33,812 bases of DNA. Origin: an uncultured Thiotrichaceae bacterium (GTDB lineage: Bacteria; Pseudomonadota; Gammaproteobacteria; SZUA-229). The stretch's first letter is position 1, and every line of letters begins with the position of its first letter. The position numbers and the translations under genes are program-made. Under the pieces are notes generated by a model. It ran no database searches. It had not been told where the DNA came from and worked only from the letters and a program-made list of their open reading frames with translations. The DNA lies in assembly GCA_964485705.1 (NCBI GenBank), contig CAZALW010000004.1:1-33812 (forward strand), written 5' to 3'. Shown here piece after piece: positions 13,437 to 29,407 of this stretch.

Positions 13437-14105
13437 ATGTCACAAAAAAATAAACAAATTTTGTCCGGTGCCACCCGGTTTTTTTATGTTTTTTTATGTT
13501 TTTCACTAACCGCTTTCACTACACAGTCAATCGCTATCTCATCAGCAGACACCGGTTCAACAACTGCCGAAGACCCACATGCACACCACCGAATGATGAT
13601 GCAGAACAACGACAACTATAACCGGTCATATTCTTCATACAGACTTCCTCCCAAGGTACTAAAAGACAAAAACGGTAACGATGTTAACCTGCACGATTTC
13701 CTGCATGATGACAGACCGTTTATTATGAGTTTTATCTTTACTACCTGCACAACAATCTGCCCGGTATTAACCGCTACTCTCTCGTCTGCGCAGAACGACT
13801 TAATGACATCCCAGATAAAACCCGTGCTGATATCAATCAGCATAGATCCGGAAGTAGACACGCCAGACAAATTAACAGCATATGCGAAAAAGTTTAATGC
13901 TTCTGAGGACTGGATTTTTCTAACAGGTAAACTTGATGATATTATTGAAGTACAACGTTCACTCGGCATCTATCGTGGCAGTAAGTTAAACCATGAACCT
14001 GTTACGTTAATAAAAACTGCAGGTAAAAAGTGGCTGGTTTTAAATGGTTTCACCAGCGCAAATGATCTGGTTAATGAGTACAGATCATACAGCAGTGATG
14101 ATTAA
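13437..14105 (+). CDS. SCO1/SenC family copper chaperone
   Basis: FIFTTCTTICP (CxxxC), ISIDPEVDTP, WIFLTG, conserved His (LNHEP). N-terminal signal/anchor and a His/Met-rich patch HAHHRMMM. Confidence 0.93.
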   Translation: MSQKNKQILSGATRFFYVFLCFSLTAFTTQSIAISSADTGSTTAEDPHAHHRMMMQNNDNYNRSYSSYRLPPKVLKDKNGNDVNLHDFLHDDRPFIMSFIFTTCTTICPVLTATLSSAQNDLMTSQIKPVLISISIDPEVDTPDKLTAYAKKFNASEDWIFLTGKLDDIIEVQRSLGIYRGSKLNHEPVTLIKTAGKKWLVLNGFTSANDLVNEYRSYSSDD

Positions 14106-15837
14106 AGATCAGATGCCTGCACGCTCTGCCAATATTGCCAGGAACGCAGTACGAAAAGCCACCTGTTACTCTGCAATTAGCCTTATTACAATACTGCTAT
14201 CGTCAACCAGCACATTTGCCAGTTATATAAATCAAGATGCAATACTGGCAGGTAAAAATATATACCTACATGGCAAACTTTCATCTGGTGAAAATGTTAT
14301 TGCCACCATCGTTGATGATGTTCTGTTAACCGGCAAACAGGCTGCGTGCGTTAACTGTCATCGACACAGTGGCCTGGGGTCCAATGAAGGCTCGAGCACT
14401 GCACCGGCGATAACAGGTGAGATTCTTTTTTTTGAAAAAAAAATCAAGGCGCACCGTTTCATATCAAACCCGACTAAAACACCTTCTAAACTTGATCGAC
14501 CCGCATATACAAAAAACAGCTTAAAAAACACACTATTGACAGGTGTAGATATAAACGGCAAGCCACTTGATAGATTAATGCCTCGTTATACATTTGCAGA
14601 AAATGATTATAACCATCTACATGCTTACCTCAATTCCTTATCAATTAATAATGCAGGCGTTACGGATACTACCTTACACATCGCCACCATTATAGATGAA
14701 AGAGTTAGCACAGATAAAATTGATACCCTACTCAACACATTAAAAGAATATATCTCAGACCTAAATTCTGGAACAAGACATGAGGTAAAAAGAGCCGCAC
14801 AGGCACCAATACAAAAAGAATGGTCATACCAGGGTTATAGAAAATACAAGTTGCATGTATGGCGGCTCACAGATGAGCCTGACTCATGGCAGAAACAACT
14901 GGACAGTTATTATGATAAAACACCCGTGTTTGCCGTTGTTTCCGGTATAAGTAAAGACAGCTGGAAAAATATAGATAAATTCTGTAACGCCAGGGAAGTA
15001 CCATGCATACTGCCAAATACAAAAACACCCGGTTATTCAAATAAAAACTTTTATACCCTGTATTACAATTCCGGGCCGTATAACGATGCATCGGTTATTG
15101 CACGATATTTCAACGATAAAACAATAGTTAATAATGAAGTGAATAGCATTGTACAGCTATATGATAATTCAAGTTATAGTGAAGTAGCAAGAAACACACT
15201 GCATAAAGAAATCTCATTAAACAAAAAATATAATATCACTAGTGTGTCAGTCGACACGATCAGCAATAAACATAACATTGATAAATATATAATAAACAGT
15301 AAAACAACGATCATTATCTGGTCTGATAAAATTGATACCTCCCTGATAGAGGCATTAACCAGTCATAAAAACAAAATACAATCTATTTTTATTCCTTACT
15401 ATTTAGCAACATCAAACGAAACCAGACAAAAACTTAAAAACATTGACGTTGATATTTTGACTTCATACCCATACGTAAAACCTTCTAGTGAGCCACGAGC
15501 CACAATAAGATCAAGCGTATGGGGAAGATCCAGAAAAATTGATATGACTGAAAAAGCCATATTCACAAACACGTTTACCGCAATAAAATTATTAATGAAT
15601 GCGATCAAACATGCAAGAAGTCACTTTAACCGTGCTTACATAATCGAGCTTCTGGAACATAAGCTCGACAAGGCATTATTAACCGGGATGTACCCCAAAT
15701 TAACTATCGGCCCTAATCAACGTTATGCTTCCAGAGGCGGTTATATTATGAAAGTACCTGATGATGCATCTTCACCACTGCAACCGGTAAGCCAATGGCT
15801 GCTACCTGAAAAACAGGTTAAACTTACTCAACAGTAA
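14098..15837 (+). CDS. Monoheme cytochrome c fused to a type-I periplasmic-binding-protein-like domain
   Basis: Signal peptide, heme motif CVNCH, candidate distal Met in LMPRY, then a long alpha/beta region (PVFAVVSG, EVPCILP, LTIGPNQRYASRGGYI). Start placed at ATG 14098 overlapping the SCO end; exact start uncertain. Confidence 0.8.
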   Translation: MIKDQMPARSANIARNAVRKATCYSAISLITILLSSTSTFASYINQDAILAGKNIYLHGKLSSGENVIATIVDDVLLTGKQAACVNCHRHSGLGSNEGSSTAPAITGEILFFEKKIKAHRFISNPTKTPSKLDRPAYTKNSLKNTLLTGVDINGKPLDRLMPRYTFAENDYNHLHAYLNSLSINNAGVTDTTLHIATIIDERVSTDKIDTLLNTLKEYISDLNSGTRHEVKRAAQAPIQKEWSYQGYRKYKLHVWRLTDEPDSWQKQLDSYYDKTPVFAVVSGISKDSWKNIDKFCNAREVPCILPNTKTPGYSNKNFYTLYYNSGPYNDASVIARYFNDKTIVNNEVNSIVQLYDNSSYSEVARNTLHKEISLNKKYNITSVSVDTISNKHNIDKYIINSKTTIIIWSDKIDTSLIEALTSHKNKIQSIFIPYYLATSNETRQKLKNIDVDILTSYPYVKPSSEPRATIRSSVWGRSRKIDMTEKAIFTNTFTAIKLLMNAIKHARSHFNRAYIIELLEHKLDKALLTGMYPKLTIGPNQRYASRGGYIMKVPDDASSPLQPVSQWLLPEKQVKLTQQ

Positions 15838-16888
15838 GGTGTTCAACCCTGAAATCCCCGATCACAAGTGTTAATCTGTCGCCTGTTTTAATCCTTTTAC
15901 CCGGATTGGCGATCATCAAAAAGTAGTCCTTGTTTTCCTTTATGTAACCAGGTGCCTGCCTTAAAAAACCCACTTTAGGTGATGCAGGTACGCCATATCT
16001 AACGTCTGATGCTTCTTCGATTATGAAGGGACGAAGCTTTCTGTCAAATAGAGGTTTGGCTTTTTCACTGTCAACAACACGATAACTAATATTCAGCATG
16101 TAACCAGCCGATGACTGCCGAACCCTGAAATTATCCACGCCCCATTTATTTGTTATAGATTCAGTAGTTTTATCTTTTATCGTTTTAGCACTTTGCTGAA
16201 CCTTGCCAGAGCCCTGGGTATTATCATCAGTGACAGTTATAGGTATCGCACCCGAGCCTGAGGGAAGGAAAAACTGTCTATCATTTTGGCTACTGTCAGC
16301 ACCCTGATTTTTACCAGCAATATTAGCTGAAACAACCGCATTATCATTGGTATTGTGTATCGTTGTTTGTTCTGTCATTTGCGCTGACAAATGTTCTGGT
16401 TTTTTGTCAACGGATTGCTCTGCAAGCTGAACATTATATGCAAATAAATTATTAATGATGAAGGAAACGACCTGCCCATTGGCATCACTAAGCGGGTTTT
16501 TTAGTGATTTTGTTACAGAAAAATCGGTATCACCATTAGCAATAACTTCCAGCTGAATTATCGCAACATCCAGCTCCCCTTCGACCGTATCAAAACTGGC
16601 AAATAGTATCTCATCAATGCGGCCTTCAGTATTATTGATAACACCAGATCTGTTGGCCAAACTCCAGATATGATTGATGACAACGGATTGTGCCTGTAAT
16701 ACATCTGGATTAAAGCGAATATTCAGACCACCGCCAAATATTTTTGGTGACTCAGAGAGTGTGACAAAAAGTAAAATGGTATCACCAACCTGGTAATTAG
16801 CCTGATTCGGCGTGATATTGACAACAGCGTTTGCCTGCGCACCAAAAGAAAATATAAAGACCAATAAACCCAGAGCCAAACACTTCAT
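15824..16888 (-). CDS. Secreted protein: N-terminal cohesin-like domain, low-complexity linker, C-terminal domain of unknown function
   Basis: Signal peptide ending AQA/ANA. YQVGDTILLFVTL...GGGLNIRFNPDVLQ...INNTEGRI...GELDVAIIQLEVIANGDT is the typical cohesin strand pattern. C-terminal domain WGVDNFRVRQSSAGYMLNISYRVVD...GDRLTLVIGDFRVEHLTVE. Confidence 0.75.
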   Translation of the reverse strand: MKCLALGLLVFIFSFGAQANAVVNITPNQANYQVGDTILLFVTLSESPKIFGGGLNIRFNPDVLQAQSVVINHIWSLANRSGVINNTEGRIDEILFASFDTVEGELDVAIIQLEVIANGDTDFSVTKSLKNPLSDANGQVVSFIINNLFAYNVQLAEQSVDKKPEHLSAQMTEQTTIHNTNDNAVVSANIAGKNQGADSSQNDRQFFLPSGSGAIPITVTDDNTQGSGKVQQSAKTIKDKTTESITNKWGVDNFRVRQSSAGYMLNISYRVVDSEKAKPLFDRKLRPFIIEEASDVRYGVPASPKVGFLRQAPGYIKENKDYFLMIANPGKRIKTGDRLTLVIGDFRVEHLTVE

Positions 16889-17080
16889 AATTTAATCCCA
16901 CACACAAAATAATTATTGGAAAATCAGAAAAATAAATAAGAATAATAAACAGTAAAAAGAATTTGAAAAACTAATACATAAGATTAAGGTATATAAAAAA
17001 ACAAGCTGACAAAACAGAAGTATTCATAGTGCTTACAATACCATAATCGTTAAAACCTATCGTTAATTCACCAGCTAATA

Positions 17081-17385
17081 TTAATTGTTAATATCATTTA
17101 GTCTACGATACCAGATGGCCCCGGTGGACCGCCAAACATTACTCTGAAAATTGAAAAATCGCTGAAGCCTACTAGACCATTGCCATCGAAGTCAGCATCA
17201 GGATCAGTTGTACCAAATGAAACTCTGAACAGGCTAAAGTCACTAAAACCAACCAGACCATCGTTATTGAGATCCGCATCACAGATATTGCCATAACCAT
17301 CGGCATCTGTATCCACCTGTAATTTGTTACTGGCTGTAATACAATTATCACAGGCATCATACCAACCATCACCATCACTATCCGT
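17081..17385 (-). repeat. TSP3 + dockerin-like C-terminal cassette, copy 3 (subtilase)
   Basis: Encodes DSDGDGWYDACDNC...DADLNNDGLVGFSDFSLFRVSFG...DADFDGNGLVGFSDFSIFRVMFG..PGPSGI. DNA is visibly similar to the other two copies, including 17 nt beyond the stop. Confidence 0.88.
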
Positions 17386-18834
17386 TGTACCAGCTGGACA
17401 TCTCAATTTTAATAACGCCTGGTAAGCATCAACCAGACCATATCCAGTAACGTCATCAGGGCCAGGTGAACCAAGATCTAGTGCCGCGTCATATAAAGCA
17501 TTTCTAATATCATTATGGCTCGCGGTCGGTACTGCACTTTTAAGTAATGCAATAATTCCGGTAATATGCGGCGCAGCGAATGAGGTTCCTTGAACCATTG
17601 TATAAGGATCCAAAGCAGTACCCTGACCAAATGATAAATCTGAGGTGTATATTCCCACACCAGGTGCAGCCAGGTTAGGATAAAAACCATCAGAACAGCT
17701 TGATGCTCCTCGACTACTGGTATTAGCCACAGCCATCGATTCATCAACTGAAGCTACGGATACCACTTCAGCATAATCTGCCGGACTATATAAAGTTTGC
17801 TCAACGGGACCGCCATTTCCAGCAGCAAAAACAACCTCAATACCCGCCTGTTTTAGTGCATCAATATCTGCATGAAATTCAGTGTCACAAGTTGATGACG
17901 AACTTGTTGAACCCCATGAATTATTAACAATATCAGGCGCATCATCTGTAGATGGATCATCATCCGGGTCTAATAACCATTGAAAGCCACTGTGGATTGC
18001 ACTTAAGGTTGCCGTGGCATTATCTCTAAAGATCTTTACTGAAATCCAGTGAGCACCCGGTGCAACACCTATATTATTGCCTGAAGCATCACCACCAACC
18101 ATTACACCCATCACCTGGGTGCCATGACCCATGCCATCATGAGGCTGTGGATATTCTGAGTAAGGATCAAACCAGCTATTTGTACCACCTCTCCAGCTAG
18201 AAACCAGATCAGGATGCTGTGCATCAACACCGGTGTCCATTGAAGCAATTACTATGCCCTCACCAGTAATACCGTCATTCCATAAACTGGCCGACTTAAC
18301 CATATCAAGATTCCATGTTGGCATGCTATTACTGGTACTAACATTATGGTTTGCCAGTTTTATAACTGAATCAAGATTAATGCGATCTACCTGGGGATGA
18401 TTTAAAAAGATATTAATGAGATGCGGCGGCAATTTAACGGCCATTGCATTAATCAGCCATAATTCACGATCAATGTTCTTTTTGTATGACTTTAATAGCC
18501 TTTTGAATTGCTTGCTTGAAATGTCAGCATCTGACTTCATAAACTGGATGTGCATCCTGCGCATTTCTTTTCTAGCTTTTTTATAAGCTTTTATATAGGT
18601 TTTTTTATCCTTAAAATCCGAACGTTTGATCTTTTTCAACTTGTCGCTAGCATTCCTCTTATTGACATTCCTGTTGTCAGCATTTCTAGCAGGTTGGCTA
18701 TTAAAATAAATAATTACCGATATTTTATCGCCAGGCTGGCTGCTATTTATTTTTTCCTGCAGATTTTCCCCCAGATAACCAGCCAAACAGTTAACAGGGG
18801 AAACAAGCAGCAAAATAATAAACAGCAAACGCAC
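17098..18834 (-). CDS. Secreted S8 (subtilisin-like) serine peptidase with prodomain and C-terminal TSP3 + dockerin-like module
   Basis: Catalytic Asp (SMDTGVD), His (GHGTQVMG), oxyanion Asn (AAGNGG), Ser (QGTSFAAPH). I9-like propeptide. GTG start after AAGGA. Confidence 0.93.
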   Translation of the reverse strand: MRLLFIILLLVSPVNCLAGYLGENLQEKINSSQPGDKISVIIYFNSQPARNADNRNVNKRNASDKLKKIKRSDFKDKKTYIKAYKKARKEMRRMHIQFMKSDADISSKQFKRLLKSYKKNIDRELWLINAMAVKLPPHLINIFLNHPQVDRINLDSVIKLANHNVSTSNSMPTWNLDMVKSASLWNDGITGEGIVIASMDTGVDAQHPDLVSSWRGGTNSWFDPYSEYPQPHDGMGHGTQVMGVMVGGDASGNNIGVAPGAHWISVKIFRDNATATLSAIHSGFQWLLDPDDDPSTDDAPDIVNNSWGSTSSSSTCDTEFHADIDALKQAGIEVVFAAGNGGPVEQTLYSPADYAEVVSVASVDESMAVANTSSRGASSCSDGFYPNLAAPGVGIYTSDLSFGQGTALDPYTMVQGTSFAAPHITGIIALLKSAVPTASHNDIRNALYDAALDLGSPGPDDVTGYGLVDAYQALLKLRCPAGTTDSDGDGWYDACDNCITASNKLQVDTDADGYGNICDADLNNDGLVGFSDFSLFRVSFGTTDPDADFDGNGLVGFSDFSIFRVMFGGPPGPSGIVD

Positions 18835-18847
18835 TAAATATCCTTAA

Positions 18848-19150
18848 TTAATTTTTAATATCATTCAATTTGCAATACCGGATGGTCCCGGTGATTTTCC
18901 AAACATCACTCTAAACAGGCTAAAGTCACTAAAACCAACCTGGCCACTACCATCGAAGTCAGCATCAGCATCAGTTGTGCCGAATGAGACTCTGAACAGG
19001 CTAAAATCGCTAAAACCAACCTGGCCATCGTTATTGAGATCCGCGTCACAGATATTGCCAAAACCATCTCCGTTGCTATCACGCTGATCTGAATTAGCGA
19101 TTAAGGTACAGTTATCCAGATGATCCAGTACCGTATCTGAATCTGAATCG
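18848..19150 (-). repeat. TSP3 + dockerin-like C-terminal cassette, copy 2 (cupredoxin subunit C)
   Basis: Encodes DSDSDTVLDHLDNC...QRDSNGDGFGNICDADLNNDGQVGFSDFSLFRVSFG...DADFDGSGQVGFSDFSLFRVMFGKSPGPSGIAN. Confidence 0.9.
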
Positions 19151-20190
19151 GTGCCTACCTGCAGGATAATCACTAAACTACCAGGTGAAGTAGGCATGCT
19201 TCCATTAGTAGCAGTGAGAGTAGTCAGATTCAACATACGATCAAACATCGTGTAATTACCTGCACTTTGCGGTGAAAACAGGACATCTCTTGTTTGACCT
19301 GCAGCAACCAACACAGAATACTGCGTTTTAGGGTTTTGATAGACATGCCCATCTTCTGCAATTATGACAAGGTCATTACCGTGCAGCGTAGGCATATGTG
19401 ATTTCAGCCCCATGTTAATAAAACGTATTAATATATCCTGCCCTGGTGCACCCACGACAGGTGCACCTGTTGATGAATCATCACCATTCACCAGAAAATA
19501 TTGCGGATTATAATCCATGGTACTGGTCATTCCTGCAGGTGTACCATATACACCACTGGCAACCTGATTATGTAACACTGTGTCTATTTCACTATAGAAC
19601 ACTGTTGTTTCACTATCATATGTTGTTGCGATATTGGCATAAGCCTGACCCGGTGCTGCGTTTTTAGTCAGCGCGCCATATAAACCCATCTGTACCTGTA
19701 GCGCAGGATGAGTGCCGCTTTGATAGGCAAAAGTGCCCGGTTTCACGTTAGTCCAGGAATAAACCTGATCCTTTGAGCCATCTGTAGCCGTGGCAACACT
19801 GTCCGTTTCATGGGTAAACGACCTTACCCGAGTATTATCGGATGGCAGCATCACAGGAACCATGGTTGTTGAGTTCTGCCCGGGTATGACAATGGATACC
19901 GGCTCGGACAGACCAATATTTCTCACATGGATATTCAATACCGAATCAGTATCAGCCACGGTTAAAGCCGGTCCGGGCACCTGAATTGAGGCTGAACAGT
20001 CATCCGCAAAATCTGCACTGTCTGGCGCAAACCCCCACATCGGCACCACAACACCATCAGACATGGTGATGTTTTCCTGCTTTGCACACAGATAGTAATC
20101 TACTGCAAATGTTGCACCACTATAACTTGCTGATATTAAGCTCAATGCGATGGTACTTGCGAGAGCATTTTTTGTAAATTTGATTTTCAT
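18865..20190 (-). CDS. Secreted two-domain cupredoxin (MCO-like) protein lacking canonical Cu ligands, with C-terminal TSP3 + dockerin-like module (subunit C)
   Basis: MCO fold landmarks (VPMWGF, VPGPALTV, PGTFAY, MGLYGAL, YFLVNG, LIRFINMG), but ligand positions read SIVIPG, YQSG, HMPTLHG and MFDR. Confidence 0.8.
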   Translation of the reverse strand: MKIKFTKNALASTIALSLISASYSGATFAVDYYLCAKQENITMSDGVVVPMWGFAPDSADFADDCSASIQVPGPALTVADTDSVLNIHVRNIGLSEPVSIVIPGQNSTTMVPVMLPSDNTRVRSFTHETDSVATATDGSKDQVYSWTNVKPGTFAYQSGTHPALQVQMGLYGALTKNAAPGQAYANIATTYDSETTVFYSEIDTVLHNQVASGVYGTPAGMTSTMDYNPQYFLVNGDDSSTGAPVVGAPGQDILIRFINMGLKSHMPTLHGNDLVIIAEDGHVYQNPKTQYSVLVAAGQTRDVLFSPQSAGNYTMFDRMLNLTTLTATNGSMPTSPGSLVIILQVGTDSDSDTVLDHLDNCTLIANSDQRDSNGDGFGNICDADLNNDGQVGFSDFSLFRVSFGTTDADADFDGSGQVGFSDFSLFRVMFGKSPGPSGIAN

Positions 20191-20222
20191 TTTAATTACT
20201 CCGTTTAATCTTTGCTCTGCAA

Positions 20223-21563: not shown

Positions 21564-22819
21564 TATGCACCTCCTGCTGCTGCGATTACTATTTCGGTCA
21601 TCAAGCCACCAAAATCTTCCGTATCATTACTCAGATGATTCAGGTTAGATGTATATAGAAAATATTTTCCTGGCGCCACATTTGTGGTATCAATGATGAC
21701 ATCGATAGCTTCACCACCACCCAGTGTTACTGTATTTGTCATATAAAAATGAGGTTCACCTGCAGCGGTACGTAACTGTTTTGCCCCCATACCAATAACC
21801 TGCATATCAAGCCCAAGTGTTTTTATGGAGTAAAAAAGAGTGGTGCTCACATTTGAAATGCGTAGCAGTACTTTTTGCCCCTGCTCGGCTGTGATCAGTG
21901 CGTTTTCCCCCTGCACAACCCGGTCATGCATATTTTGCACAGGCGTTGTTATTGGGCTTGTAGCCACAGTATCAGGATAGCCACGTCCGTTGATTAATGG
22001 ATAGGTATCAAGCATGTGTGCAAATGGCAGTGGTTGCGTATTCTGTGATGCATCATGAAACACCGGATCCATGGAAGTCAATTGAATTGGAAACTCAACA
22101 TCGTAATAGGTCGAACCATCGCCATCGTTATAGGCATACTGATTGCCTGTCTGATGAGTAAATCCATTTAAATCTGTGCCGTCCGGCAACTTATTCTGCG
22201 CAGCCTTAACGTAAAGATTACCCATCATGCCCATTTGCATATGTTCTGCCGCTTCAACATGACAGTGATATAAGAAAGTACCCGGTTCAGCAATATTGTA
22301 GTAATAAGTCAGGGATGAGCCCATATTGACTGAAATACTGTTATCAGGCACGCCATCAAAAATAGCTGAGGCATTGGGAAAACCATGAAAATGTACTGTG
22401 TGAGGGTCAAAAAGATCCGGTCTCATCACCATACCAACATTGGTTAAGGTGAGATAAACTTCCTGACCTTGCTCCAACACAATGGCAGGTGCTGGCAAGT
22501 TAGCATACAAGGTACCATCTGTTATCGCATCAGCCTCATCATAGCCGGTAATATCACCGAAACTAAAAACATACAGTTCTCTGCCATCTGCCATTTTTGC
22601 AAAACCGTCACCTGATGACAGGTGAATGCATTTCACATTCGGGTCATAGTCAGGGTCAGACATTTCTGGTATGCCATTGCTACCCGCAGTAACACCGTCA
22701 GACAATAAGTTATCCCCTGGACATTGAATAAAAGGAACGGCTATGGTACTGGATGAAAACACACCTATCCCTGTTGCTAACAACGCAATATATAGTTTAT
22801 GCAATTTAAAGTTTTTCAT
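21563..22819 (-). CDS. Secreted two-domain cupredoxin (MCO-like) protein with T1 and T2/T3 motifs in domain 1 only (subunit A)
   Basis: Domain 1 has PHTVHFHG (22385-22402) and YHCHVEAAEHMQMGM. Domain 2 reads FYSIKTLG and YFLYTSNLNH at the equivalent positions. Confidence 0.9.
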   Translation of the reverse strand: MKNFKLHKLYIALLATGIGVFSSSTIAVPFIQCPGDNLLSDGVTAGSNGIPEMSDPDYDPNVKCIHLSSGDGFAKMADGRELYVFSFGDITGYDEADAITDGTLYANLPAPAIVLEQGQEVYLTLTNVGMVMRPDLFDPHTVHFHGFPNASAIFDGVPDNSISVNMGSSLTYYYNIAEPGTFLYHCHVEAAEHMQMGMMGNLYVKAAQNKLPDGTDLNGFTHQTGNQYAYNDGDGSTYYDVEFPIQLTSMDPVFHDASQNTQPLPFAHMLDTYPLINGRGYPDTVATSPITTPVQNMHDRVVQGENALITAEQGQKVLLRISNVSTTLFYSIKTLGLDMQVIGMGAKQLRTAAGEPHFYMTNTVTLGGGEAIDVIIDTTNVAPGKYFLYTSNLNHLSNDTEDFGGLMTEIVIAAAGGA

Positions 22820-22835
22820 TTTTCATTTTCCTTTG

Positions 22836-23140
22836 TTAATTTTCAATATCATTTAGTTTGCAATACCAGATGGTCCCGGTGGTTTTCCAAACATCACTCT
22901 GAACAGACTAAAGTCACTAAAGCCAACCTGGCCACTACCATCGAAGTCAGCATCAGCATCATTTGAGCCAAATGAAACTCTAAACAGGCTAAAGTCACTA
23001 AAACCAACCTGGCCATTGTTATCGAGATCTGCATCACAGATATTGCCAAAACCATCTGCATTACTATCACGCTGATCCGGATTGATGATTAATATACAGT
23101 TATCCTGAGTATCAACCACACCATCACCATCTGTATCAGG
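22836..23140 (-). repeat. TSP3 + dockerin-like C-terminal cassette, copy 1 (1.8k-aa protein)
   Basis: Encodes DTDGDGVVDTQDNC...QRDSNADGFGNICDADLDNNGQVGFSDFSLFRVSFG...DADFDGSGQVGFSDFSLFRVMFGKPPGPSGIAN. Confidence 0.9.
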
Positions 23141-26100
23141 TGTGATTGCGACAACCACTTCATCGGCACCAATATCAAAGGGTGTTGTTCTTGCTTCACC
23201 ATCAATATCATCAACCAACTCAGCAATCATGCTGTCAACGCCACCATTAATCGCCGGAGAACTTGTTTTTAGATGATAGTTACCCGATATTGATAATGGA
23301 CCAAAGTGAATATCAACAAAGTTACCACCTTCATCAAGTGCCGCCGCAGAACCAATTTGGGTAACAATAGACTGCTCACCCTGAATGACTGTCTGTGAGC
23401 GGTCACCATTAAAGTAGTCAAGAATAAACTCAGGATTTGATGAACTATTGCTGGTATGCGTTCCTGATGCATCTGTCAGAATGGAGTGCCTTGGATCCAG
23501 GGCACCCGTGGTACCGATTACCGCCAGATCGCTGAACACTGCCACGCCGCCATTAACCACATCTGGCATCAGGCCGTAGGTAGCCGGAATTGTTGTTACA
23601 TCAATTTGCCAGCTAAATGTTCTGTTCTGCCAGATAATATTATTCCGCAGTTTCGGATTAGAAAATGTCTGAGCTGAATTAGCCGCCAGTACACCACTGT
23701 GTGCAAATGACACGATACCTGCCCCAGGCTGTGCAGTAGAGGTATTAGCATCGCTATCAAACACATTACCAACCGTTGCAGTCGCATCATTATGTGCAAT
23801 AGTATTGTTTATAATGCGTACTTTTGCCGCATCCTGCATGGCAATACCAGCACCGGTCCAGCCAGCATGGTTATTAACAATCATGTTGTCAAAAATATCA
23901 ATGCCGAACCACTGTGCTGAATCAGAAGTGTTATTAGCAACATCAACACCGTTGATTTCGGACAGAGTAATACCCGCACCAAAACCTGCTCCTGCAGAGT
24001 TACCCTGAATCAGGTTGGCCTCAACAACAACATCACCTGAACCTTCTGTTTCCTGCAGCGCCAGGCCAGGTTGACCACCGATGAACAAACCGGCACCGTG
24101 TACATTTTTACCCTGGTTAAAGTTCTGGTTAAAGGCAATCGTGTTATTCGAAATCACACCATTATCACTTAAACCCAGATGAGCGATACCGGCACCATTG
24201 TCCTGTGCGAAATTACCACAGATAAAGTTATGATTTATCGTGTAGTCATCACTACCGGTATACAAAGCGATACCACCACCGGAGCCAAATGTGGTTCCGT
24301 TTAACACGATCTCATTGTCATGGATATTAATAAAATCATTGTCAGAGTCGGTAGGCACAGCGCCATTATTCAACACTGTAATCAGCGTAGGGTTACCTAC
24401 ATGAATGCCACCACCATAGATACCTTCATTACCTTTGATTTTATTGTTGGAAATCGTCAGGTAGTCAACATAGGCATTAACAAAAATACCACCACCTGTG
24501 CTGGCACCAGTGATTTCGATACCATCAATACGTGGCTGGTGAGCCTCGATGAAGTTTCCAGTCGATTGACCAAGAACAATAATGCCAGGACCTTCTTCAG
24601 CCAGGAACTGCTTTTCCTGATTAGGCAGGTAGTCGTAAGTAATGCCATCACGGGCAATAATCTGCTGACGCCAGTCTTCAAGCTTTGAAGGTGGCGTTCT
24701 GATTGCTGAAATCCTGGTCACACCGGCACCCCATCCCTGTAACTGAACAGGTTTATCCATAATCACCAGCTCACTGTATGTACCGGGTGAGAGCAAAATC
24801 AGCTCACCGGGATCAGCCGCATCGATTGCATCCTGAATAGGAGTGGCAGGCAATAATGCAGGGGATACTGAATGTATACCTGCAGCAGGTAAATGCGTGG
24901 TCACAGTAACACCACGAGGTGATTTTACGCCTGTGCTGGTGGTTAGCAATAACTGACCGGTAGCCACATTGGCAGGAACCGTTACCTGAACAACTACATC
25001 ACTCCATGAAGTGACCGTTAGTTCATCATTACCGATAAACACTGTACCCTGTGTTGCGCCAAAGCCATAATTACGGGGTATGGTTATCGGTTCGCCCGCC
25101 ATACCAAACAGGTGGTTAGGCACATCAACCATTCCTTCAGAGAAGATTGTTAATTCTCTTGCAGTAGAGTCAGTTGCAATGACAGGGCCAGTTGAACCGC
25201 CAGGACCCGTTACATATTTAATCAGCGGCTTGTTATCAGGTATTGCACAATCTACCGGGGAATTACCGACAGAGGCAAAAGCTGCAACAGGAACGACCGG
25301 TGTATCCAGATAAGTTGTCGACCCCGGCATATACTGGAAGGTATAGCAGAAAGTACTAAACTGTGGATTGTAATTCGGGTCGTTAATAAATGGACTTGAC
25401 GAAGCATCAGTCGGATCATAATTAGGATTAGCAATCGGACTGGGGTCATTCATACAGGCAAACAGCATATTTGGCGCCATACCCGTAGCGCTGGCAATAT
25501 TAACCGTTGCAGTAGATGGCACCAGCGCTTCGAATTTACCAAACTCATCTGCATAGACTTTGATAACCTCCTTACCTGCCCAGTCATAAAATGCCACCGG
25601 CACCCATGATGGTGCAAATTTTTCACCAAAGTTAGGGTTGTTAGGGTCAAATTCATTACCCAGATCGTTAAGGATACCACCGACCAGGTGCGCAGCGATG
25701 GGCGCCTGAGTGAACATAAAGAAGTCTGCAGCAGCATTTTTACCAGCCGTCAGTGCAATATGTTTTCTGTCACAAAGTGGCCTTACCGTTACCGCTGCCG
25801 GATCATAAAAGGGTGAATTAATTAAATCAGCCGCAGCAATTCCAGGCAATGGATCCCCGGTACTACCTGTCTGAAAAGAGACAAATTCAGGAATAAGGTG
25901 ATCATCACCAACACAAACTGGCGGTAATAAGGCGGGGACAAATCCATCACCGAAATCGACATTTTTATCTTCTTCTTTCAGCAGGGTATAACCGACAGGC
26001 ACTGTCGATTCAACAATATAGAAACCTGCAACCAGCCCCGGTATCTCAGCACCGGTAGGCGCACCGTTTTCATCACGTGCTATACGCGAGGTAAAGGCAT

Positions 26101-28252
26101 AACCACCATCATAAACACCTTCACGCAACTGGTTAAAGTTTCTTAAACCGTCAAAACAATCGGTTGTTTTTTCGATAGCTGTACCTGGGTGAGCAACAAA
26201 TGTCTCACCTGCACAACCGGTTGGCAAACTGTCATCCCAGCTGTCGGTATATGTCACCTGAATGGCATCACCATAATCGAAGATGCCGTTACCATTTCTA
26301 TCAACATCTTCTGATCCCGGGAAATTACCCTGTGGTGCATTATCACTATCAGCCAGGGTAATACCCGGCACACCATCAACAAGATCATCAATAGTTTCAT
26401 CATTATCTGTATCACGATAAAGATTCATCTGGATACGAGGAATACCCGGCTCCCATTCTTCAGCACCGGCAAAACGCGGGTCATCTTCAGCACGTGTGAT
26501 AGCGTATATTGCCATGCCGCTAATACCTCCATTGCCGTAATCGAATTGACCGTCACCATCATAGTCAACATCTTCAATACCAGGGAAGTTGCCATAAGGC
26601 GCATCGTCAACATCCTGTGTGCCGTAAGACACTTTACCCCACTCAATGACATTGGTCTGACCAAGGAACATCTGCGTTGCCAGTGAGATTACCGGGCCGG
26701 TAAGTGTGGTTGATAAGTTATTACCCGTGTTTGGATTAACACTGTCCTGTAGCTGCGGGTTTAAAATATCAAAACTTGGCATATCCCATCCATTATCAGG
26801 AAGAATTTCGCCACCACCATCAACCACATAAGTCACACCCGTAGCCTTATAGCGAGCAAAGTCTACTTCAGCAACCAGCCAATGGAAGAACGGGAATATC
26901 TCATCATACGGGGCTTCACCACCCAGGTCTGTGGCGAATGCCTGATAAGGCGTGCCGTTTCTGAAACGCAAACCGGTTCCCTGCTCGGGTATGGCCACCT
27001 CGCCATTATCACGAAAACCATTTTCATTTAGATCTAAAAATACCCGCGCTTCCATTCTGGCAAACCAGCCAAATACCGGCACATCACCCAAAGCCAGTAC
27101 TGTATTAGCTCCTACATCAATCGTGCGTTTTGCAATGACAATATTCAGATTTTCATCCCAGACAACAATTTCATAAGTACCTTCAGGTATACCACTAATA
27201 GCAAAGGTACTGTCTTCATTACAGGGGGCGGCAAATAAAGCCTGGCCGCCTGCAGCAACGGTTTCATTCAGACCAACCCAGCAACCGCCAAATGCATTAC
27301 CGGAGAAAAAACCGACTTCAGGTGGGCGTGCCATGTGGTTATTAGTAATACGACCGGTAACAGAACCGTTACCAGCAGGGATCATATTAAATTGTTTGAC
27401 AAAACCAATGAAAACATGAGGACCCGGGGGACCAAATTCCACAAAGAATTCTGGCTCATTCGCCAGTACCCATGCATCAACTGTTTTACTACCTTCAATA
27501 GTAGATGTTTGAATCCAGCCTTCACCAGCAGGAGGTATCACGGTAATACCGTATTTAGCAGGTGGCATATTTTTGATATACACAAAACCTTCTGCATCAG
27601 GCGTTAAAATACCGTCACCCAACTGGGTCACCACACCTGGATTATTTGGATCATATTCTGTACCCAGCGGATTACCAAAAGCATCCTGAATGATGTCACC
27701 ACCGGTTTGACCATAACGCCCTCCCGCATCAGCTATGTGAACAGTGAATTGGCCAGTAGCAAGTGGCAAGCCCAGCTCTTCTGGATCATCCGGCGCACCA
27801 TTGATGGGGTGATTATCATGAAAAATACGAACCGTGACCTGCGCAGTAGGAATCGAATGTGTATGTACCGCAACGTTGACATCACTATCACTGCCTAAAA
27901 ACGTTTTACCGCCCATAGAATGCTCAACAAATGGCAACACCGTGATAAAATATTTTTTACCCGGATCAGTATCAATAGTACAGGATGATGACCCTGTTCC
28001 CGTACATTCCCCAGTAGCCACCAGCGGTGAATAACTATTATGGAAGGAAAGCGACAATGAGTCCTGCACCGGAACGCCGGGAATCACATCAAACTTCATA
28101 TTTTCTTCAAGTGTCCACTTAAAGCCATTAACGGGAGTATTGTTTTCATTAACCACCGTCAGATTAATTGCCGCATGCACTGCTGATGTAACAGTAATTA
28201 ATAACAACAATGTATAACTAATATATACAGACATTTTTGTGTAATTTTTCAT
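22853..28252 (-). CDS. Very large secreted protein: SdrD-B/prealbumin-like Ig domains, IPT/TIG-like domain, right-handed beta-helix, choice-of-anchor-Q-like tail, TSP3 + dockerin-like module
   Basis: Signal peptide ending VHA. VFLDLNENGFRDNGE (SdrD B-like); FGATQGTVFIG..LTVTSWSD (IPT-like); IQDAIDAADPGELILLSPGTYSE followed by repeated I-x-N-N-x-I-x-x-N / GGGI (beta-helix); YHLKTSSPAINGG...DIDGEAR...DIGADE. Start placed at MKNYTK (28252) after AGGGAAG; the ORF extends to 28276. Confidence 0.85.
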   Translation of the reverse strand: MKNYTKMSVYISYTLLLLITVTSAVHAAINLTVVNENNTPVNGFKWTLEENMKFDVIPGVPVQDSLSLSFHNSYSPLVATGECTGTGSSSCTIDTDPGKKYFITVLPFVEHSMGGKTFLGSDSDVNVAVHTHSIPTAQVTVRIFHDNHPINGAPDDPEELGLPLATGQFTVHIADAGGRYGQTGGDIIQDAFGNPLGTEYDPNNPGVVTQLGDGILTPDAEGFVYIKNMPPAKYGITVIPPAGEGWIQTSTIEGSKTVDAWVLANEPEFFVEFGPPGPHVFIGFVKQFNMIPAGNGSVTGRITNNHMARPPEVGFFSGNAFGGCWVGLNETVAAGGQALFAAPCNEDSTFAISGIPEGTYEIVVWDENLNIVIAKRTIDVGANTVLALGDVPVFGWFARMEARVFLDLNENGFRDNGEVAIPEQGTGLRFRNGTPYQAFATDLGGEAPYDEIFPFFHWLVAEVDFARYKATGVTYVVDGGGEILPDNGWDMPSFDILNPQLQDSVNPNTGNNLSTTLTGPVISLATQMFLGQTNVIEWGKVSYGTQDVDDAPYGNFPGIEDVDYDGDGQFDYGNGGISGMAIYAITRAEDDPRFAGAEEWEPGIPRIQMNLYRDTDNDETIDDLVDGVPGITLADSDNAPQGNFPGSEDVDRNGNGIFDYGDAIQVTYTDSWDDSLPTGCAGETFVAHPGTAIEKTTDCFDGLRNFNQLREGVYDGGYAFTSRIARDENGAPTGAEIPGLVAGFYIVESTVPVGYTLLKEEDKNVDFGDGFVPALLPPVCVGDDHLIPEFVSFQTGSTGDPLPGIAAADLINSPFYDPAAVTVRPLCDRKHIALTAGKNAAADFFMFTQAPIAAHLVGGILNDLGNEFDPNNPNFGEKFAPSWVPVAFYDWAGKEVIKVYADEFGKFEALVPSTATVNIASATGMAPNMLFACMNDPSPIANPNYDPTDASSSPFINDPNYNPQFSTFCYTFQYMPGSTTYLDTPVVPVAAFASVGNSPVDCAIPDNKPLIKYVTGPGGSTGPVIATDSTARELTIFSEGMVDVPNHLFGMAGEPITIPRNYGFGATQGTVFIGNDELTVTSWSDVVVQVTVPANVATGQLLLTTSTGVKSPRGVTVTTHLPAAGIHSVSPALLPATPIQDAIDAADPGELILLSPGTYSELVIMDKPVQLQGWGAGVTRISAIRTPPSKLEDWRQQIIARDGITYDYLPNQEKQFLAEEGPGIIVLGQSTGNFIEAHQPRIDGIEITGASTGGGIFVNAYVDYLTISNNKIKGNEGIYGGGIHVGNPTLITVLNNGAVPTDSDNDFINIHDNEIVLNGTTFGSGGGIALYTGSDDYTINHNFICGNFAQDNGAGIAHLGLSDNGVISNNTIAFNQNFNQGKNVHGAGLFIGGQPGLALQETEGSGDVVVEANLIQGNSAGAGFGAGITLSEINGVDVANNTSDSAQWFGIDIFDNMIVNNHAGWTGAGIAMQDAAKVRIINNTIAHNDATATVGNVFDSDANTSTAQPGAGIVSFAHSGVLAANSAQTFSNPKLRNNIIWQNRTFSWQIDVTTIPATYGLMPDVVNGGVAVFSDLAVIGTTGALDPRHSILTDASGTHTSNSSSNPEFILDYFNGDRSQTVIQGEQSIVTQIGSAAALDEGGNFVDIHFGPLSISGNYHLKTSSPAINGGVDSMIAELVDDIDGEARTTPFDIGADEVVVAITPDTDGDGVVDTQDNCILIINPDQRDSNADGFGNICDADLDNNGQVGFSDFSLFRVSFGSNDADADFDGSGQVGFSDFSLFRVMFGKPPGPSGIAN

Positions 28253-28354
28253 AACTTCTTCCCTTAATCCTGCCATTTAGGTTCATTTTTCAGTAGAGCA
28301 AGACCTCATCGATCTTTTTCCACGCTTAAACATTAACCAAGTGCTGTCAAAAAG

Positions 28355-29043: not shown

Positions 29044-29407
29044 TATTTTTTCATTTTTCCGCGACAATCTAATGCCTTTGCTTAATAAATAATTTCTTTT
29101 CTTTTTTGCTTCCTTACTTACATAAAAAAAACACCCACCACTTTCAGGCAATAATTTTGTACATGTATAATCAACATTGTACTTTTTATATAAATTCAGC
29201 TTATGTTATTATTGTTTAAATAATAAAATTACCCTATAAAGTAAAAACTTTATTTTTAATGTACACCTATATTCAAAAACTACATTAACGTGTATTAATA
29301 TTATTTACGGATTAGAATCAGGATTAAGGCATCTTTGATTAATTATTATCAATTCGAGCGATGCCTAATTTATATTTCTAACATAGTTAGAATAAGAGAA
29401 AATTGCT

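What the first reader, a model, noticed from the sequence alone, without database searches (positions are those of the whole stretch)
15824..28252. Cohesin-dockerin (cellulosome-style) assembly applied to an oxidase/protease complex
Seen: three secreted products of one gene run (the 1.8k-aa protein, cupredoxin C and the subtilase) end in a duplicated Ca-binding loop-helix, D-x-[ND]-x-[DNS]-G-x-V-G-F-S-D-F-S-x-F-R-V, and the last gene begins with a cohesin-like domain. Positions 10/11 (F,S) and 17/18 (R,V) are identical in both halves and in all three proteins. Known: these positions determine cohesin specificity in type I dockerins, internal symmetry allows dual-mode binding, and non-cellulosomal cohesins and dockerins exist but are mostly uncharacterised. 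Inference: the three proteins dock on the same cohesin, building an extracellular or periplasmic oxidase complex. Caveats: only one cohesin is visible, and the linker between the halves is very short, so this is a non-canonical dockerin.
Basis: partly seen in the sequence, partly recalled or inferred. Interest (0 to 1): 0.85.

Follow-up and report, generated by a model that had tools for sequence, protein, structure and literature searches.

The report
Cohesin-dockerin docking of secreted copper oxidase
A marine bacterium tags a copper oxidase subunit, a protease and a giant secreted protein with the same small calcium-binding "plug" (dockerin) and encodes the matching "socket" (cohesin) next door, a cellulosome-style docking system that looks widespread in its relatives for holding redox enzymes at the cell envelope, although binding itself is still untested.

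Summary
Three secreted proteins of one minus-strand gene run (1807 aa, MCO-like C, subtilase) end in a TSP3 repeat plus a duplicated Ca-loop/helix module. A fourth carrier, another multicopper oxidase, lies on contig C113.

- **Dockerin:** a profile of 14 such tails hits solved dockerins first (E 2e-10 to 2e-5). The window's own tails miss Pfam's Dockerin_1 cut-off.
- **Cohesin:** the N-domain of the 354-aa last gene is a Pfam cohesin (28.5 bits, cut-off 24.1).
- **Synteny:** in 97 genomes of the order, 33 of 40 cohesin-like matches lie within 5 kb of a tail gene, against about 0.4 expected. The pattern recurs in other families.
- **Anchors:** partner cohesins usually carry a VPLPA-CTERM (exosortase) signal or a C-terminal membrane helix.
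- **Selection:** dockerin helices are uniform within a genome and differ between genomes. Here they are kept by purifying selection.

The window's cohesin gene is a lineage-specific fusion without an anchor. Close relatives keep the tails but lack this cohesin. I rate it a new variant of a known kind.

The parts
22853..28276 (-). 1807-aa secreted protein: signal peptide, Ig-like/SdrD-like N-terminal part, right-handed beta-helix (NosD-like start), then TSP3 repeat plus dockerin-like tail
   Evidence: ORF. Pfam Beta_helix E 9.6e-8. NCBIfam NosD family 31.5 bits and choice_anch_Q 19.5 bits, both below cut-off. Tail.
22856..23041 (-). Dockerin-like module of the 1807-aa protein (last 62 residues)
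   Evidence: Member of alignment A7. The A7 profile hits solved dockerins at E 2e-10 to 2e-5. Genome scan with A7 gave 113.2 bits.
21563..22819 (-). Two-domain multicopper oxidase A (418 aa): HxH at 143 and HCH at 185, both in the first cupredoxin domain; no tail
   Evidence: Pfam Cu-oxidase_2/_3/Cu-oxidase. Best solved relatives are two-domain MCOs 3gdc, 3g5w and 2zwn and Cu nitrite reductases. Motifs.
20223..21563 (-). Two-domain multicopper oxidase B (446 aa): HxH at 270 and HSH at 407, both in the second half; no Cys of a type-1 site; no tail
   Evidence: Pfam Cu-oxidase_3/_2. PDB relatives are NirK, ascorbate oxidase and 2zwn. Motifs.
18865..20190 (-). MCO-like protein C (441 aa): cupredoxin fold signal but no HxH/HCH motif, then TSP3 repeat plus dockerin-like tail
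   Evidence: Pfam Cu-oxidase E 7.4e-10, TSP_3. PDB 2zwn second domain E 8e-6. No copper motifs in G000, G046 or G099.
18868..19053 (-). Dockerin-like module of protein C
   Evidence: A7 first row. Pfam Dockerin_1 16.3 bits (cut-off 22.9) and EF-hand_1 25.8 bits (cut-off 25.4).
17098..18834 (-). Subtilase (578 aa): signal peptide, I9 propeptide, S8 domain, TSP3 repeat plus dockerin-like tail
   Evidence: Pfam Peptidase_S8 E 2.4e-49, Inhibitor_I9 E 4e-5. NCBIfam dockerin_GC 22.7 bits, below the cut-off of 29.
17101..17286 (-). Dockerin-like module of the subtilase
   Evidence: 115.4 bits with the A7 profile.
15824..16888 (-). 354-aa protein: signal peptide, cohesin domain, low-complexity linker with the NDRQFFLPSG motif, C-terminal 115-aa domain of unknown family. 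It is a fusion of what are two adjacent genes in G046 and G099.
   Evidence: The frame is carried intact by contigs of two runs.
16475..16816 (-). Cohesin domain (residues 25-138 of the 354-aa protein)
   Evidence: Pfam PF00963 28.2 bits and 28.5 bits, E 2e-6, cut-off 24.1. A family profile of 81 relatives hits solved cohesins: 3l8q_A E 1e-10, 5g5d_A 4e-6.
15827..16177 (-). C-terminal domain of unknown function (KWGVDNFRV... to the end). It is a separate secreted 153-190-aa protein next to the membrane-anchored cohesin gene in G046 and G099.
   Evidence: No Pfam family at E<=5. No solved relative at E<=10.
13437..14105 (+). SCO1/SenC copper chaperone-like gene, convergent neighbour, conserved in the syntenic contigs L035 and L039
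   Evidence: Pfam SCO1-SenC E 1.1e-20. Synteny.
14044..15837 (+). 597-aa protein with one CxxCH motif and weak periplasmic-binding-protein signal, convergent on the cohesin gene, conserved in L035 and L039
   Evidence: Translation. Pfam Peripla_BP_6 E 0.0026, below cut-off. Synteny.

Best explanation
The gene run encodes a set of Sec-exported proteins, three of which carry the same short-linker, type-I-like dockerin. A dockerin here is two EF-hand-type Ca loops, each followed by a helix; in this family it is preceded by a TSP3 repeat and followed by PPGPSG.

The last gene carries a true cohesin domain. The most likely mechanism is Ca-dependent docking of these tails, and of a fourth on the C113 multicopper oxidase, onto the genome's two single-cohesin proteins. 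Those are the 354-aa protein of the window and the exosortase-sorted VPLPA-CTERM cohesin-like protein of contig C113. Docking would hold a copper oxidase, a giant beta-helix protein and a subtilase together at the cell envelope.

The oxidase itself is probably a heteromer. A supplies HxH plus HCH from its first domain and B supplies HxH plus HSH from its second, enough for one type-1 site and one trinuclear cluster. C has no copper ligands and would act as the dockerin-bearing carrier subunit.

The system is one case of a wider cohesin-dockerin display system in this order and class. In it, dockerin-tagged redox enzymes, proteases and adhesins are encoded directly beside small anchored cohesins, and each genome has its own recognition helix.

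Shown: domain homology, synteny, co-occurrence, and purifying selection on the helices. Inferred: actual binding, which cohesin is used, location (periplasm or surface), and the A/B/C heteromer.
For: **Dockerin homology**
- A profile of 14 tails hits solved dockerins as its top 17 matches: 2y3n_B 2.3e-10, 8x39_A 1.4e-9, CelS 1daq_A 4e-7, 1ohz_B 2e-5. The alignments run over both halves. Calmodulin-type EF hands score only 0.003 or worse.
- 12 of 14 tails match Pfam Dockerin_1 at E<=1, best 1.1e-8.
- Tails of relatives pass the Pfam cut-off in whole-protein scans at 30.7, 24.1 and 23.8 bits.

**Cohesin homology**
- PF00963 scores 28.5 and 28.2 bits against a cut-off of 24.1.
- 34 of 81 family members match Cohesin.
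- The family profile hits solved cohesins at E 1e-10 to 5e-5.

**Linkage within the order (97 genomes, 19 genera)**
- Tails occur in 26 genomes and cohesin-like genes in 21. Both occur in 17, tail only in 9, cohesin only in 4, neither in 67.
- 33 of 40 cohesin-like matches lie within 5 kb of a tail match and 24 within 1 kb, on 24 contigs, against about 0.43 expected by chance.

**Linkage outside the order (298 genomes at least 90% complete)**
- Both occur in 11, tail only in 12, cohesin only in 2, neither in 273.
- 10 of 16 cohesin matches lie within 5 kb of a tail.

**Own genome**
- The fourth tail-bearer (C113 MCO) lies 1.9 kb from a cohesin-like gene that carries a VPLPA-CTERM signal (31.9 and 35.9 bits against a cut-off of 25.35).
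- An exosortase is present (230.8 bits).

**The orthologous operon keeps cohesins**
- G046, of the same genus, has big-A-B-C, then a VPLPA cohesin, then the subtilase, then a membrane-anchored cohesin, then the C-domain gene.
- G099 has the equivalent arrangement, twice.

**A shared partner is implied**
- The G000 operon dockerins are 82-92% identical to each other. They are only 38-50% identical to dockerins on orthologous carriers of G046 and G099, whose bodies are 50-72% identical.
- The 13-residue helix segment shared by the C113 MCO and protein C differs at 10 synonymous and 1 non-synonymous codon in half 1, and at 7 and 1 in half 2. This indicates selection rather than recent gene conversion.

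**The module is not position-bound**
- In G021 it sits near the N-terminus (residues 73-130) of an MtrC-like cytochrome, next to a cohesin gene.

**Copper motifs**
- They are split between A and B and absent from C in 3 of 3 genomes looked at.
- The best solved relatives are two-domain MCOs and NirK, which are trimeric by recalled knowledge.
Against: - The window's own tails are below Pfam Dockerin_1 (16.3, 15.6, 11.1 and 12.5 bits against 22.9) and below NCBIfam dockerin_GC (22.7 and 19.2 against 29).
- The linker between the halves is 6-9 residues shorter than in solved dockerins.
- The 354-aa protein has neither the C-terminal membrane helix nor a VPLPA-CTERM signal that its relatives use, so what it would tether the cargo to is unknown.
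- Of 27 homologues of the 354-aa protein, only the window's own copy and 3 others hold the cohesin. This is based on 11 sequences read, with the rest judged by length and coverage.
- The closest syntenic contig, L039, keeps dockerin tails on C and on the subtilase, but its last gene has no cohesin.
- Tails occur without a detectable cohesin in 9 of 26 tail-positive genomes of the order and in 12 of 23 outside it. PF00963 found nothing in 5 of 5 such genomes. However, one of three such loci inspected did hold an overlooked divergent cohesin-like VPLPA gene.
- A 209-bp gap separates the subtilase gene from the cohesin gene. No terminator-like site was seen there, and promoter-like sites were no more frequent than in shuffles.
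- The C113 cohesin-like domain is only weakly cohesin by Pfam (18.5 bits). A profile of 19 VPLPA-type proteins hits solved cohesins only at E 0.009-0.08.
- Related genomes are not independent, so the Fisher p-values overstate the association.
Confidence: 0.68

Rival explanations
1. The tails are Ca-binding stabilising or adhesion modules (a TSP3 repeat plus an EF-hand pair) that act on their own, for example by binding calcium, polysaccharide or the outer membrane. They have no cohesin partner, and the cohesin-like proteins have an unrelated role.
For: Pfam scores EF-hand_1 (25.8 bits, just over its cut-off) above Dockerin_1 for the window's tail. Many tail-bearing genomes show no detectable cohesin (9 of 26 and 12 of 23). 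L039 keeps tails without a cohesin in the last gene.
Against: Cohesin-like genes are almost always beside tail genes (33 of 40 and 10 of 16 within 5 kb). The helices are homogenised within each genome and kept by purifying selection. The profile ranks dockerins well above EF hands. One 'tail-only' locus had a hidden cohesin-like gene.
Confidence: 0.13
2. The tail is a sorting or secretion tag read by an export or processing machine, such as exosortase, a type II secretion system or an unknown sorter. It would not be a docking module.
For: It is C-terminal on nearly all carriers and ends in a conserved PPGPSG. In the 1807-aa protein it follows a weak 'choice-of-anchor Q' match (19.5 bits, below cut-off), a domain type that by recalled knowledge precedes sorting signals. 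The genome has an exosortase.
Against: The tail has no hydrophobic helix or basic tail like the PEP-CTERM, LPXTG or GlyGly signals. In G021 the module is N-terminal, followed by 1,100 more residues. Its sequence homology is to dockerins. The exosortase signal is on the cohesin-like partners, not on the tail-bearers.
Confidence: 0.05
3. The tails do bind the cohesin-like proteins, but the small cohesins act as dedicated periplasmic chaperones or export escorts for dockerin-tagged cargo. The binding would be transient rather than forming a standing oxidase-protease complex.
For: Many loci have one small soluble cohesin (about 160-185 aa, no anchor) immediately after each dockerin gene, often followed by a second, anchored one. 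The window's own cohesin protein has no anchor.
Against: Most cohesin-like partners carry VPLPA-CTERM signals or membrane helices, which fits tethering. No chaperone-type family signal was found. This idea was not tested.
Confidence: 0.12

Closest known systems
Type I cohesin-dockerin pairs of clostridial cellulosomes (e.g. Acetivibrio/Clostridium thermocellum Xyn10B dockerin-CipA cohesin, PDB 1ohz; CelS dockerin 1daq)
   Same: The module has two tandem Ca-loop plus helix segments with near-perfect internal symmetry. The profile of the tails aligns over both halves of these solved dockerins. The partner is a Pfam cohesin. Helix residues are genome-specific, like the species-specific recognition recalled for cellulosomes.
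   Different: The cargo is a copper oxidase subunit, a subtilase and a beta-helix protein rather than glycoside hydrolases. The host is Gram-negative, judging from its exosortase and PEP-CTERM-type signals. No multi-cohesin scaffoldin was found in this genome. The inter-repeat linker is 6-9 residues shorter. A TSP3 repeat always precedes the module and PPGPSG follows it. The window's tails miss the Pfam cut-off.
Non-cellulosomal cohesin/dockerin modules: Peer et al. 2009 survey (known to me only from reference lists and recall); Clostridium perfringens NagH/NagJ toxin-complex dockerin (PDB 2jnk/2ozn); Archaeoglobus and ANME archaea
   Same: These are single cohesins and dockerins on non-cellulolytic proteins of unknown assembly role. 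The hyaluronidase dockerin 2jnk_A is hit at E 0.0017. ANME genomes carry many such domains beside extracellular redox proteins, with function stated as unclear (passages of PMC5244752 and PMC9012536).
   Different: Here the pairing is backed by a conserved dockerin-gene to cohesin-gene synteny across many genera. The cohesins carry exosortase-type anchors. I found no paper that combines these terms.
PEP-CTERM / VPLPA-CTERM exosortase sorting system (TIGR03370, PF09721)
   Same: The cohesin-like partner on C113 and its counterparts in G009, G010, G046, G099, G102 and others end in a VPLPA-CTERM signal above the model's cut-off. An exosortase gene is present.
   Different: I did not find exosortase substrates described as cohesin carriers that could display other proteins (0 papers). 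The window's own cohesin protein has no such signal.
Trimeric two-domain multicopper oxidases and Cu nitrite reductases (e.g. 3g5w, 2zwn, 3gdc; SLAC type)
   Same: A and B are two-cupredoxin-domain proteins whose best solved relatives are these enzymes. In those enzymes the trinuclear cluster lies between domain 1 of one chain and domain 2 of the next (recalled).
   Different: Here three different paralogues are encoded in a row. The ligand motifs are split so that only an A-B interface could be complete, and C has none. That would make a heteromer with a single active site and a dockerin handle, which is an inference and was not tested.

Membership tests
Cohesin (Pfam PF00963) | Sequence score above Pfam's gathering cut-off (24.1 bits) | tested here: met
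   28.5 bits, E 2e-6, residues 25-138, model positions 3-123 of 139. 28.2 bits in the genome scan. The whole-protein hmmscan missed it.
Cohesin (Pfam PF00963) | Nine-stranded beta-sandwich (jelly-roll) fold | not testable with these tools
Indirect support only: the family profile hits solved cohesins, 3l8q_A at E 1e-10, mostly over the first 45 residues or so.
Cohesin (Pfam PF00963) | Binds a dockerin in a Ca-dependent way | not testable with these tools
   Complex prediction unavailable. Synteny and co-occurrence only.
Dockerin type I (Pfam PF00404) | Sequence score above Pfam's gathering cut-off (22.9 bits) | tested here: not met
   The window's tails score 16.3, 15.6, 11.1 and 12.5 bits. 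Homologous tails in relatives do pass at 30.7, 24.1 and 23.8 bits; best of the 14 tails is E 1.1e-8.
Dockerin type I (Pfam PF00404) | Two tandem segments, each a 12-residue EF-hand-like loop (acidic or amide side chains at 1, 3, 5, 12) followed by a helix | tested here: met
   D1, N/D3, D/N/S5 and D12 are present in all six half-repeats of the window and both of C113.
Dockerin type I (Pfam PF00404) | Detectable homology to solved dockerins over both repeats | tested here: met
   A7 profile: the top 17 PDB matches are dockerins at E 2.3e-10 to 2e-5, aligned over profile positions 3-49.
Dockerin type I (Pfam PF00404) | Usual spacing of the two repeats | tested here: not met
   The repeats start 27 residues apart. 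Alignments to solved dockerins need 6-9 extra residues in the linker.
Cellulosome | Scaffoldin with several cohesins, and carbohydrate-active enzymes as cargo | tested here: not met
   Only two single-cohesin proteins were found in this 92%-complete genome. The cargo is MCO-like, a subtilase and a beta-helix protein.
VPLPA-CTERM exosortase substrates (TIGR03370) | C-terminal VPLPA motif, hydrophobic helix and basic tail above the model cut-off (25.35), with an exosortase in the genome | tested here: met
   Met for the C113 cohesin-like protein at 31.9 and 35.9 bits; exosortase at 230.8 bits. Not met for the window's 354-aa protein, which ends in an unknown domain.
Multicopper oxidase (single-chain) | Four copper-ligand motifs (HxH, HxH, HxxHxH, HCHxxxHxxxxM) in one polypeptide | tested here: not met
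   A has HxH plus HCH, B has HxH plus HSH, C has none. A complete set would need A and B together, which is an inference.

The most novel reading that the evidence does not exclude
Many marine Gram-negative bacteria of this class may run a so-far undescribed cohesin-dockerin display system. Single-cohesin proteins, anchored by exosortase (VPLPA-CTERM) signals or a membrane helix, would tether dockerin-tagged redox enzymes at the envelope: a heteromeric copper oxidase, MtrC-like cytochromes and MauG-like peroxidases, together with proteases and adhesins. Each genome would use a private recognition helix. The frequent pair of one soluble and one anchored cohesin after each dockerin gene may occupy the two symmetric faces of one dockerin at once.
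Probability: 0.35. Interest if true: 0.8.

Novelty: new variant of a known kind. Interest (0 to 1): 0.64.

Why it matters
Cohesin-dockerin pairs are well understood only in cellulosomes. The many non-cellulosomal copies seen in genomes have no assigned role, as stated in PMC5244752 and PMC9012536 (passages read).

This locus and its relatives offer a compact, testable case with four dockerins, two cohesins, defined cargo and clear anchors. It would link the module to envelope-bound oxidative and electron-transfer enzymes in uncultured marine bacteria, and to the exosortase sorting pathway.

It also offers a natural set of orthogonal, genome-specific docking pairs. In addition, it points to a possible heteromeric copper oxidase whose inactive third subunit serves as the handle.

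Tried and rejected
**Structure and complex**
Each retry came only after the stated wait of twenty other calls.
- No fold or binding evidence exists in this report.

**Other closed or failed tools**
- Protein comparison A8 against A5 failed internally, and a local hhalign run failed on input format.

**Searches that found nothing**
- The search for related loci in genome contigs found no relative of the 354-aa protein or of its N-domain.
- Single-sequence searches were too weak: phmmer of the N-domain against the PDB gave cohesins only at E 0.22-0.87, and against 40 relatives it gave nothing. Profiles were needed.
- The C-terminal domain has no Pfam family at E<=5, no NCBIfam family and no solved relative. 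Its role stays unknown.

**Expression and transcription**
- No RNA holder was listed for the stretch.
- Promoter and terminator scans were uninformative.

**Ideas considered and dropped**
- That the 354-aa frame is an assembly chimera. Contigs of two runs carry it unchanged, though these runs may be the source samples. About 20 metagenomic proteins share the same linker-to-C-domain junction.
- P0001 (259 aa, listed as the window's own) reads as a variant with 16 bases fewer after ...FRV. This is my reading, and it was not seen in the laid contigs.
- That the identical helices come from recent gene conversion alone. The codon test argues against this for the C113 copy. Within the operon the tails are 80-91% identical in DNA, so some conversion is possible.

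**Papers**
- Peer et al. 2009 is not held. I know it only from the reference lists of two papers and from recall.
- Supplementary files were not consulted. S4 Data of PMC9012536 may list comparable architectures.
Full report
**1. What is in the window**

The minus strand carries a tight run of six genes:

| Coordinates | Length | Identity |
|---|---|---|
| 28276-22853 | 1807 aa | beta-helix protein |
| 22819-21563 | 418 aa | oxidase A |
| 21563-20223 | 446 aa | oxidase B |
| 20190-18865 | 441 aa | MCO-like C |
| 18834-17098 | 578 aa | subtilase |
| 16888-15824 | 354 aa | cohesin protein |

- The gaps between the first five genes are 33 bases or less. A 209-base gap precedes the last gene.
- All six proteins start with a signal-peptide-like hydrophobic stretch (my reading).
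- Pfam names A and B as multicopper oxidases and C as a weaker Cu-oxidase match. The 578-aa protein is an S8 subtilase with an I9 propeptide. The 1807-aa protein holds a right-handed beta-helix.
- Convergent on the run lie a 597-aa protein with one CxxCH motif and an SCO1/SenC gene.
- The window is the whole of contig C4 of a 3.59-Mb assembly in 537 contigs, 92% complete.

**2. The observation**

- The 1807-aa protein, C and the subtilase end in DxDGDG(F/Y)GNICD followed by two copies of D-x-[ND]-x-[DNS]-G-x-V-G-F-S-D-F-S-x-F-R-V. F10, S11, R17 and V18 are the same in all six half-repeats.
- A pattern scan of all 22,458 open frames of 50 aa or more in the genome found the doubled motif in four frames only. 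They are these three and a 954-aa multicopper oxidase on contig C113.

**3. Are the tails dockerins?**

- Taken alone against Pfam, the window's tails are sub-threshold for Dockerin_1 (16.3, 15.6 and 11.1 bits; 12.5 bits in the genome scan; cut-off 22.9). They score slightly better as EF hands.
- NCBIfam's GC-type dockerin model is also sub-threshold.
- A profile of 14 tails from this genome, relatives and one metagenome contig (A7) finds solved dockerins as its top 17 PDB matches, at E 2.3e-10 to 2e-5. The alignments cover both halves. Calmodulin-type EF hands appear only from E 0.003.
- Twelve of the 14 tails match Dockerin_1 at E<=1, best 1.1e-8.
- In whole-protein scans, homologous tails of three relatives pass the Pfam cut-off.
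- The alignments to solved dockerins need 6-9 extra residues between the halves, so this is a short-linker variant.
- The TSP3 repeat before the module and the PPGPSG after it are constant features of the family.

**4. Is the last gene's N-domain a cohesin?**

- Yes, by sequence. Scanned alone, residues 25-138 match Pfam Cohesin at 28.5 bits against a cut-off of 24.1. The genome scan gave 28.2 bits. The whole-protein scan had listed nothing.
- An exhaustive phmmer search gave 242 relatives at E<=1e-3.
- Of 81 that I aligned (A5), 34 match Cohesin and 8 match PEP-CTERM.
- The A5 profile hits solved cohesins at E 1e-10 to 5e-5, mainly over the first 45 residues.
- The fold could not be checked.

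**5. The 354-aa protein is a fusion**

- Of its 27 homologues I read 11.
- Three (P0010-12) are signal peptide, cohesin, Thr/Gln-rich linker and C-terminal membrane helix.
- The short ones (about 200 aa) are signal peptide, a remnant of the first cohesin strand, the same linker motif and the C-terminal 115-aa domain.
- In G046 (same genus), the orthologous operon reads: big protein (tail), A, B, C (tail), a 230-aa VPLPA-CTERM cohesin, subtilase (tail), a 365-aa cohesin-linker-membrane-helix protein, and a separate 163-aa protein made of the C-domain.
- G099, of another genus, has the same operon twice. Its anchored-cohesin and C-domain gene pair lies 11-12 kb away on the same contig.
- So the window's gene joins the cohesin and linker of one gene to the C-domain of the next, losing the membrane anchor. 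The window also lacks the VPLPA cohesin between C and the subtilase, where the gap is only 30 bases.
- The fusion is not an obvious assembly error. Contigs of two public runs carry bases 15700-17300 with no difference or indel, though those runs may be the source.
- The closest syntenic metagenome contig (L039) has tails on C and on the subtilase, but its last gene has no cohesin.

**6. A second cohesin**

- On C113, the fourth tail-bearing oxidase is followed by an SCO1-cytochrome c fusion gene and then by a 208-aa frame.
- That frame consists of a signal peptide, a cohesin-like domain and a VPLPA-CTERM sorting signal.
  - Cohesin-like domain: A5 profile E 4.5e-13; Pfam Cohesin 18.5 bits, below cut-off.
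  - Sorting signal: 31.9 and 35.9 bits against a cut-off of 25.35.
- The genome has an exosortase and nine VPLPA-CTERM matches in all.

**7. Linkage across genomes**

| Sample | Tail-positive | Cohesin-positive | Both | Tail only | Cohesin only | Neither |
|---|---|---|---|---|---|---|
| Order: 97 genomes, one family, 19 genera (G000 included) | 26 | 21 | 17 | 9 | 4 | 67 |
| Rest of the class: 298 genomes at least 90% complete | 23 | 13 | 11 | 12 | 2 | 273 |

- In the order, 33 of 40 cohesin-like matches lie within 5 kb of a tail match and 24 within 1 kb, on 24 contigs. About 0.43 would be expected by chance.
- In the rest of the class, 10 of 16 cohesin matches lie within 5 kb of a tail. One search scored only nine candidates per genome, so those counts are a floor.
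- The usual unit is a dockerin-tagged gene followed at once by a small soluble cohesin, by a VPLPA-CTERM cohesin, or by both.
- The cargo includes multicopper oxidases, MauG/MbnH-like di-haem enzymes, an MtrC-like multihaem cytochrome, Ig/cadherin-type proteins and a lactonase-type propeller.
- In G021 the module lies near the N-terminus of its carrier. That speaks against a C-terminal sorting tag.
- Related genomes are not independent, so the p-values overstate the case. The repeated adjacency in many genera and families is the stronger argument.

**8. Evidence for a shared partner**

- Within G000, the three operon dockerins are 82-92% identical to one another and 61-66% identical to the C113 one.
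- Dockerins on the orthologous carriers of G046 and G099 are only 38-50% identical to them, although the carrier bodies are 50-72% identical.
- Each genome has its own helix motif: GFSDFSLFRV here, NTQDIPLF in G046, N(T/V)LDIGLF(R/K) in G099, with further types in other families.
- The 13-codon helix segment shared by the C113 oxidase and protein C differs at 10 synonymous and 1 non-synonymous codon in half 1, and at 7 and 1 in half 2. The same peptide is therefore kept by selection on unrelated carriers.
- This is what a common binding partner predicts.

**9. What speaks against the docking reading**

- No fold or binding test could be run.
- The window's tails miss the curated cut-offs.
- The window's cohesin protein has no anchor.
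- Most close homologues of that protein have lost the cohesin, while at least one relative (L039) keeps the tails.
- A third to a half of tail-positive genomes show no cohesin by my profile. Pfam Cohesin found none in five such genomes.
- Sensitivity is part of that last point. At one of three such loci inspected (G245), a 191-aa gene with a signal peptide, a weak cohesin-like match and a VPLPA-type ending follows three tail genes.

**10. The oxidase**

- A has HxH at 143 and HCH at 185, in its first domain. B has HxH at 270 and HSH at 407, in its second half. C has none. The pattern is the same in G046 and G099.
- The best solved relatives of A and B are two-domain multicopper oxidases and copper nitrite reductases. 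From recalled knowledge these are trimers with the trinuclear site between chains.
- I infer an A-B-C heteromer with one complete site at an A-B interface and C as the dockerin-bearing handle. This is an inference only.
- A's family is very large and carries only generic names, so the substrate is unknown.

**11. Comparison with what is known, and novelty**

- The modules are members (cohesin) or close relatives (dockerin) of the cellulosomal families, and the system works like a minimal cellulosome.
- It is not a cellulosome: there is no scaffoldin and no glycoside hydrolase.
- Non-cellulosomal cohesins and dockerins are known to be widespread and unexplained (passages of PMC5244752 and PMC9012536; Peer et al. 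2009 not seen).
- My searches found no paper that combines:
  - dockerin, cohesin and PEP-CTERM;
  - 'cohesin domain' and PEP-CTERM;
  - dockerin, Gammaproteobacteria and 'thrombospondin type 3'.
- Dockerin with exosortase gave only PMC5244752. By title and abstract, none of the six papers with dockerin, cohesin and multicopper oxidase concerns a natural dockerin-bearing oxidase.
- I file this as a new variant of a known kind.

**12. Verdict**

| Claim | Probability |
|---|---|
| Homology of both modules to cohesin and dockerin | about 0.95 |
| The tails dock on cohesin proteins of this genome | about 0.7 |
| The three window proteins use the window's own cohesin specifically | about 0.45 |

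Noticed in passing
window 18865-22819 (-): Three consecutive two-domain cupredoxin paralogues with complementary copper motifs: A has HxH plus HCH in domain 1, B has HxH plus HSH in domain 2, C has none. The pattern is conserved in G046 and G099. It suggests a heteromeric oxidase with a single active site.
   Followed up: partly
G000 contig C113:230-5512 (-): A second locus of the same system: a 954-aa multicopper oxidase with the same tail, an SCO1-cytochrome c fusion gene, then a 208-aa cohesin-like protein with a VPLPA-CTERM signal. Orthologous loci in G010 and G053 add a MauG/MbnH-like di-haem protein that also carries a tail.
   Followed up: partly
window 15827-16177 (-); L041:10179-10670; L044:936-1397: A conserved domain of about 115 aa (KWGV..F.VR.T.AGYML...) with no Pfam, NCBIfam or PDB relative. 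It is always encoded next to, or fused with, the anchored cohesin gene. Its function is unknown.
   Followed up: partly
window 16090-16120 (-): The protein collection lists a 259-aa version (P0001) of the cohesin gene as the window's own. It ends ...FRVVTC, which fits a variant 16 bases shorter at this point. The contigs of two runs that I laid show no such indel.
   Followed up: partly
window 8067-13031 (-): A 1654-aa lipoprotein-like protein with TSP3 repeats and four tandem-95/cadherin-like repeats. It is conserved next to the operon in contigs L035 and L039. It has no dockerin tail: only a chance-level match (E 0.21) to the TSP3 part of the query.
   Followed up: no
L030 (G021:C120) 291-4049 (-): A 1252-aa protein with MtrC/MtrF-like multihaem signal carries the TSP3-dockerin module near its N-terminus and sits next to a VPLPA-type cohesin-like gene.
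   Followed up: partly
window 6185-7894 (+), 28660-29151 (-), 29408-30064 (+): A HisKA_3-type histidine kinase and two response regulators, one of the NarL/LuxR type, flank the oxidase run. They are possible regulators, but this was not examined.
   Followed up: no
P0051, P0132: Among distant relatives of the cohesin domain are giant proteins with 12-17 matched stretches (1924 and 2724 aa). These are scaffoldin-like multi-cohesin proteins from unknown organisms. I did not fetch them.
   Followed up: no
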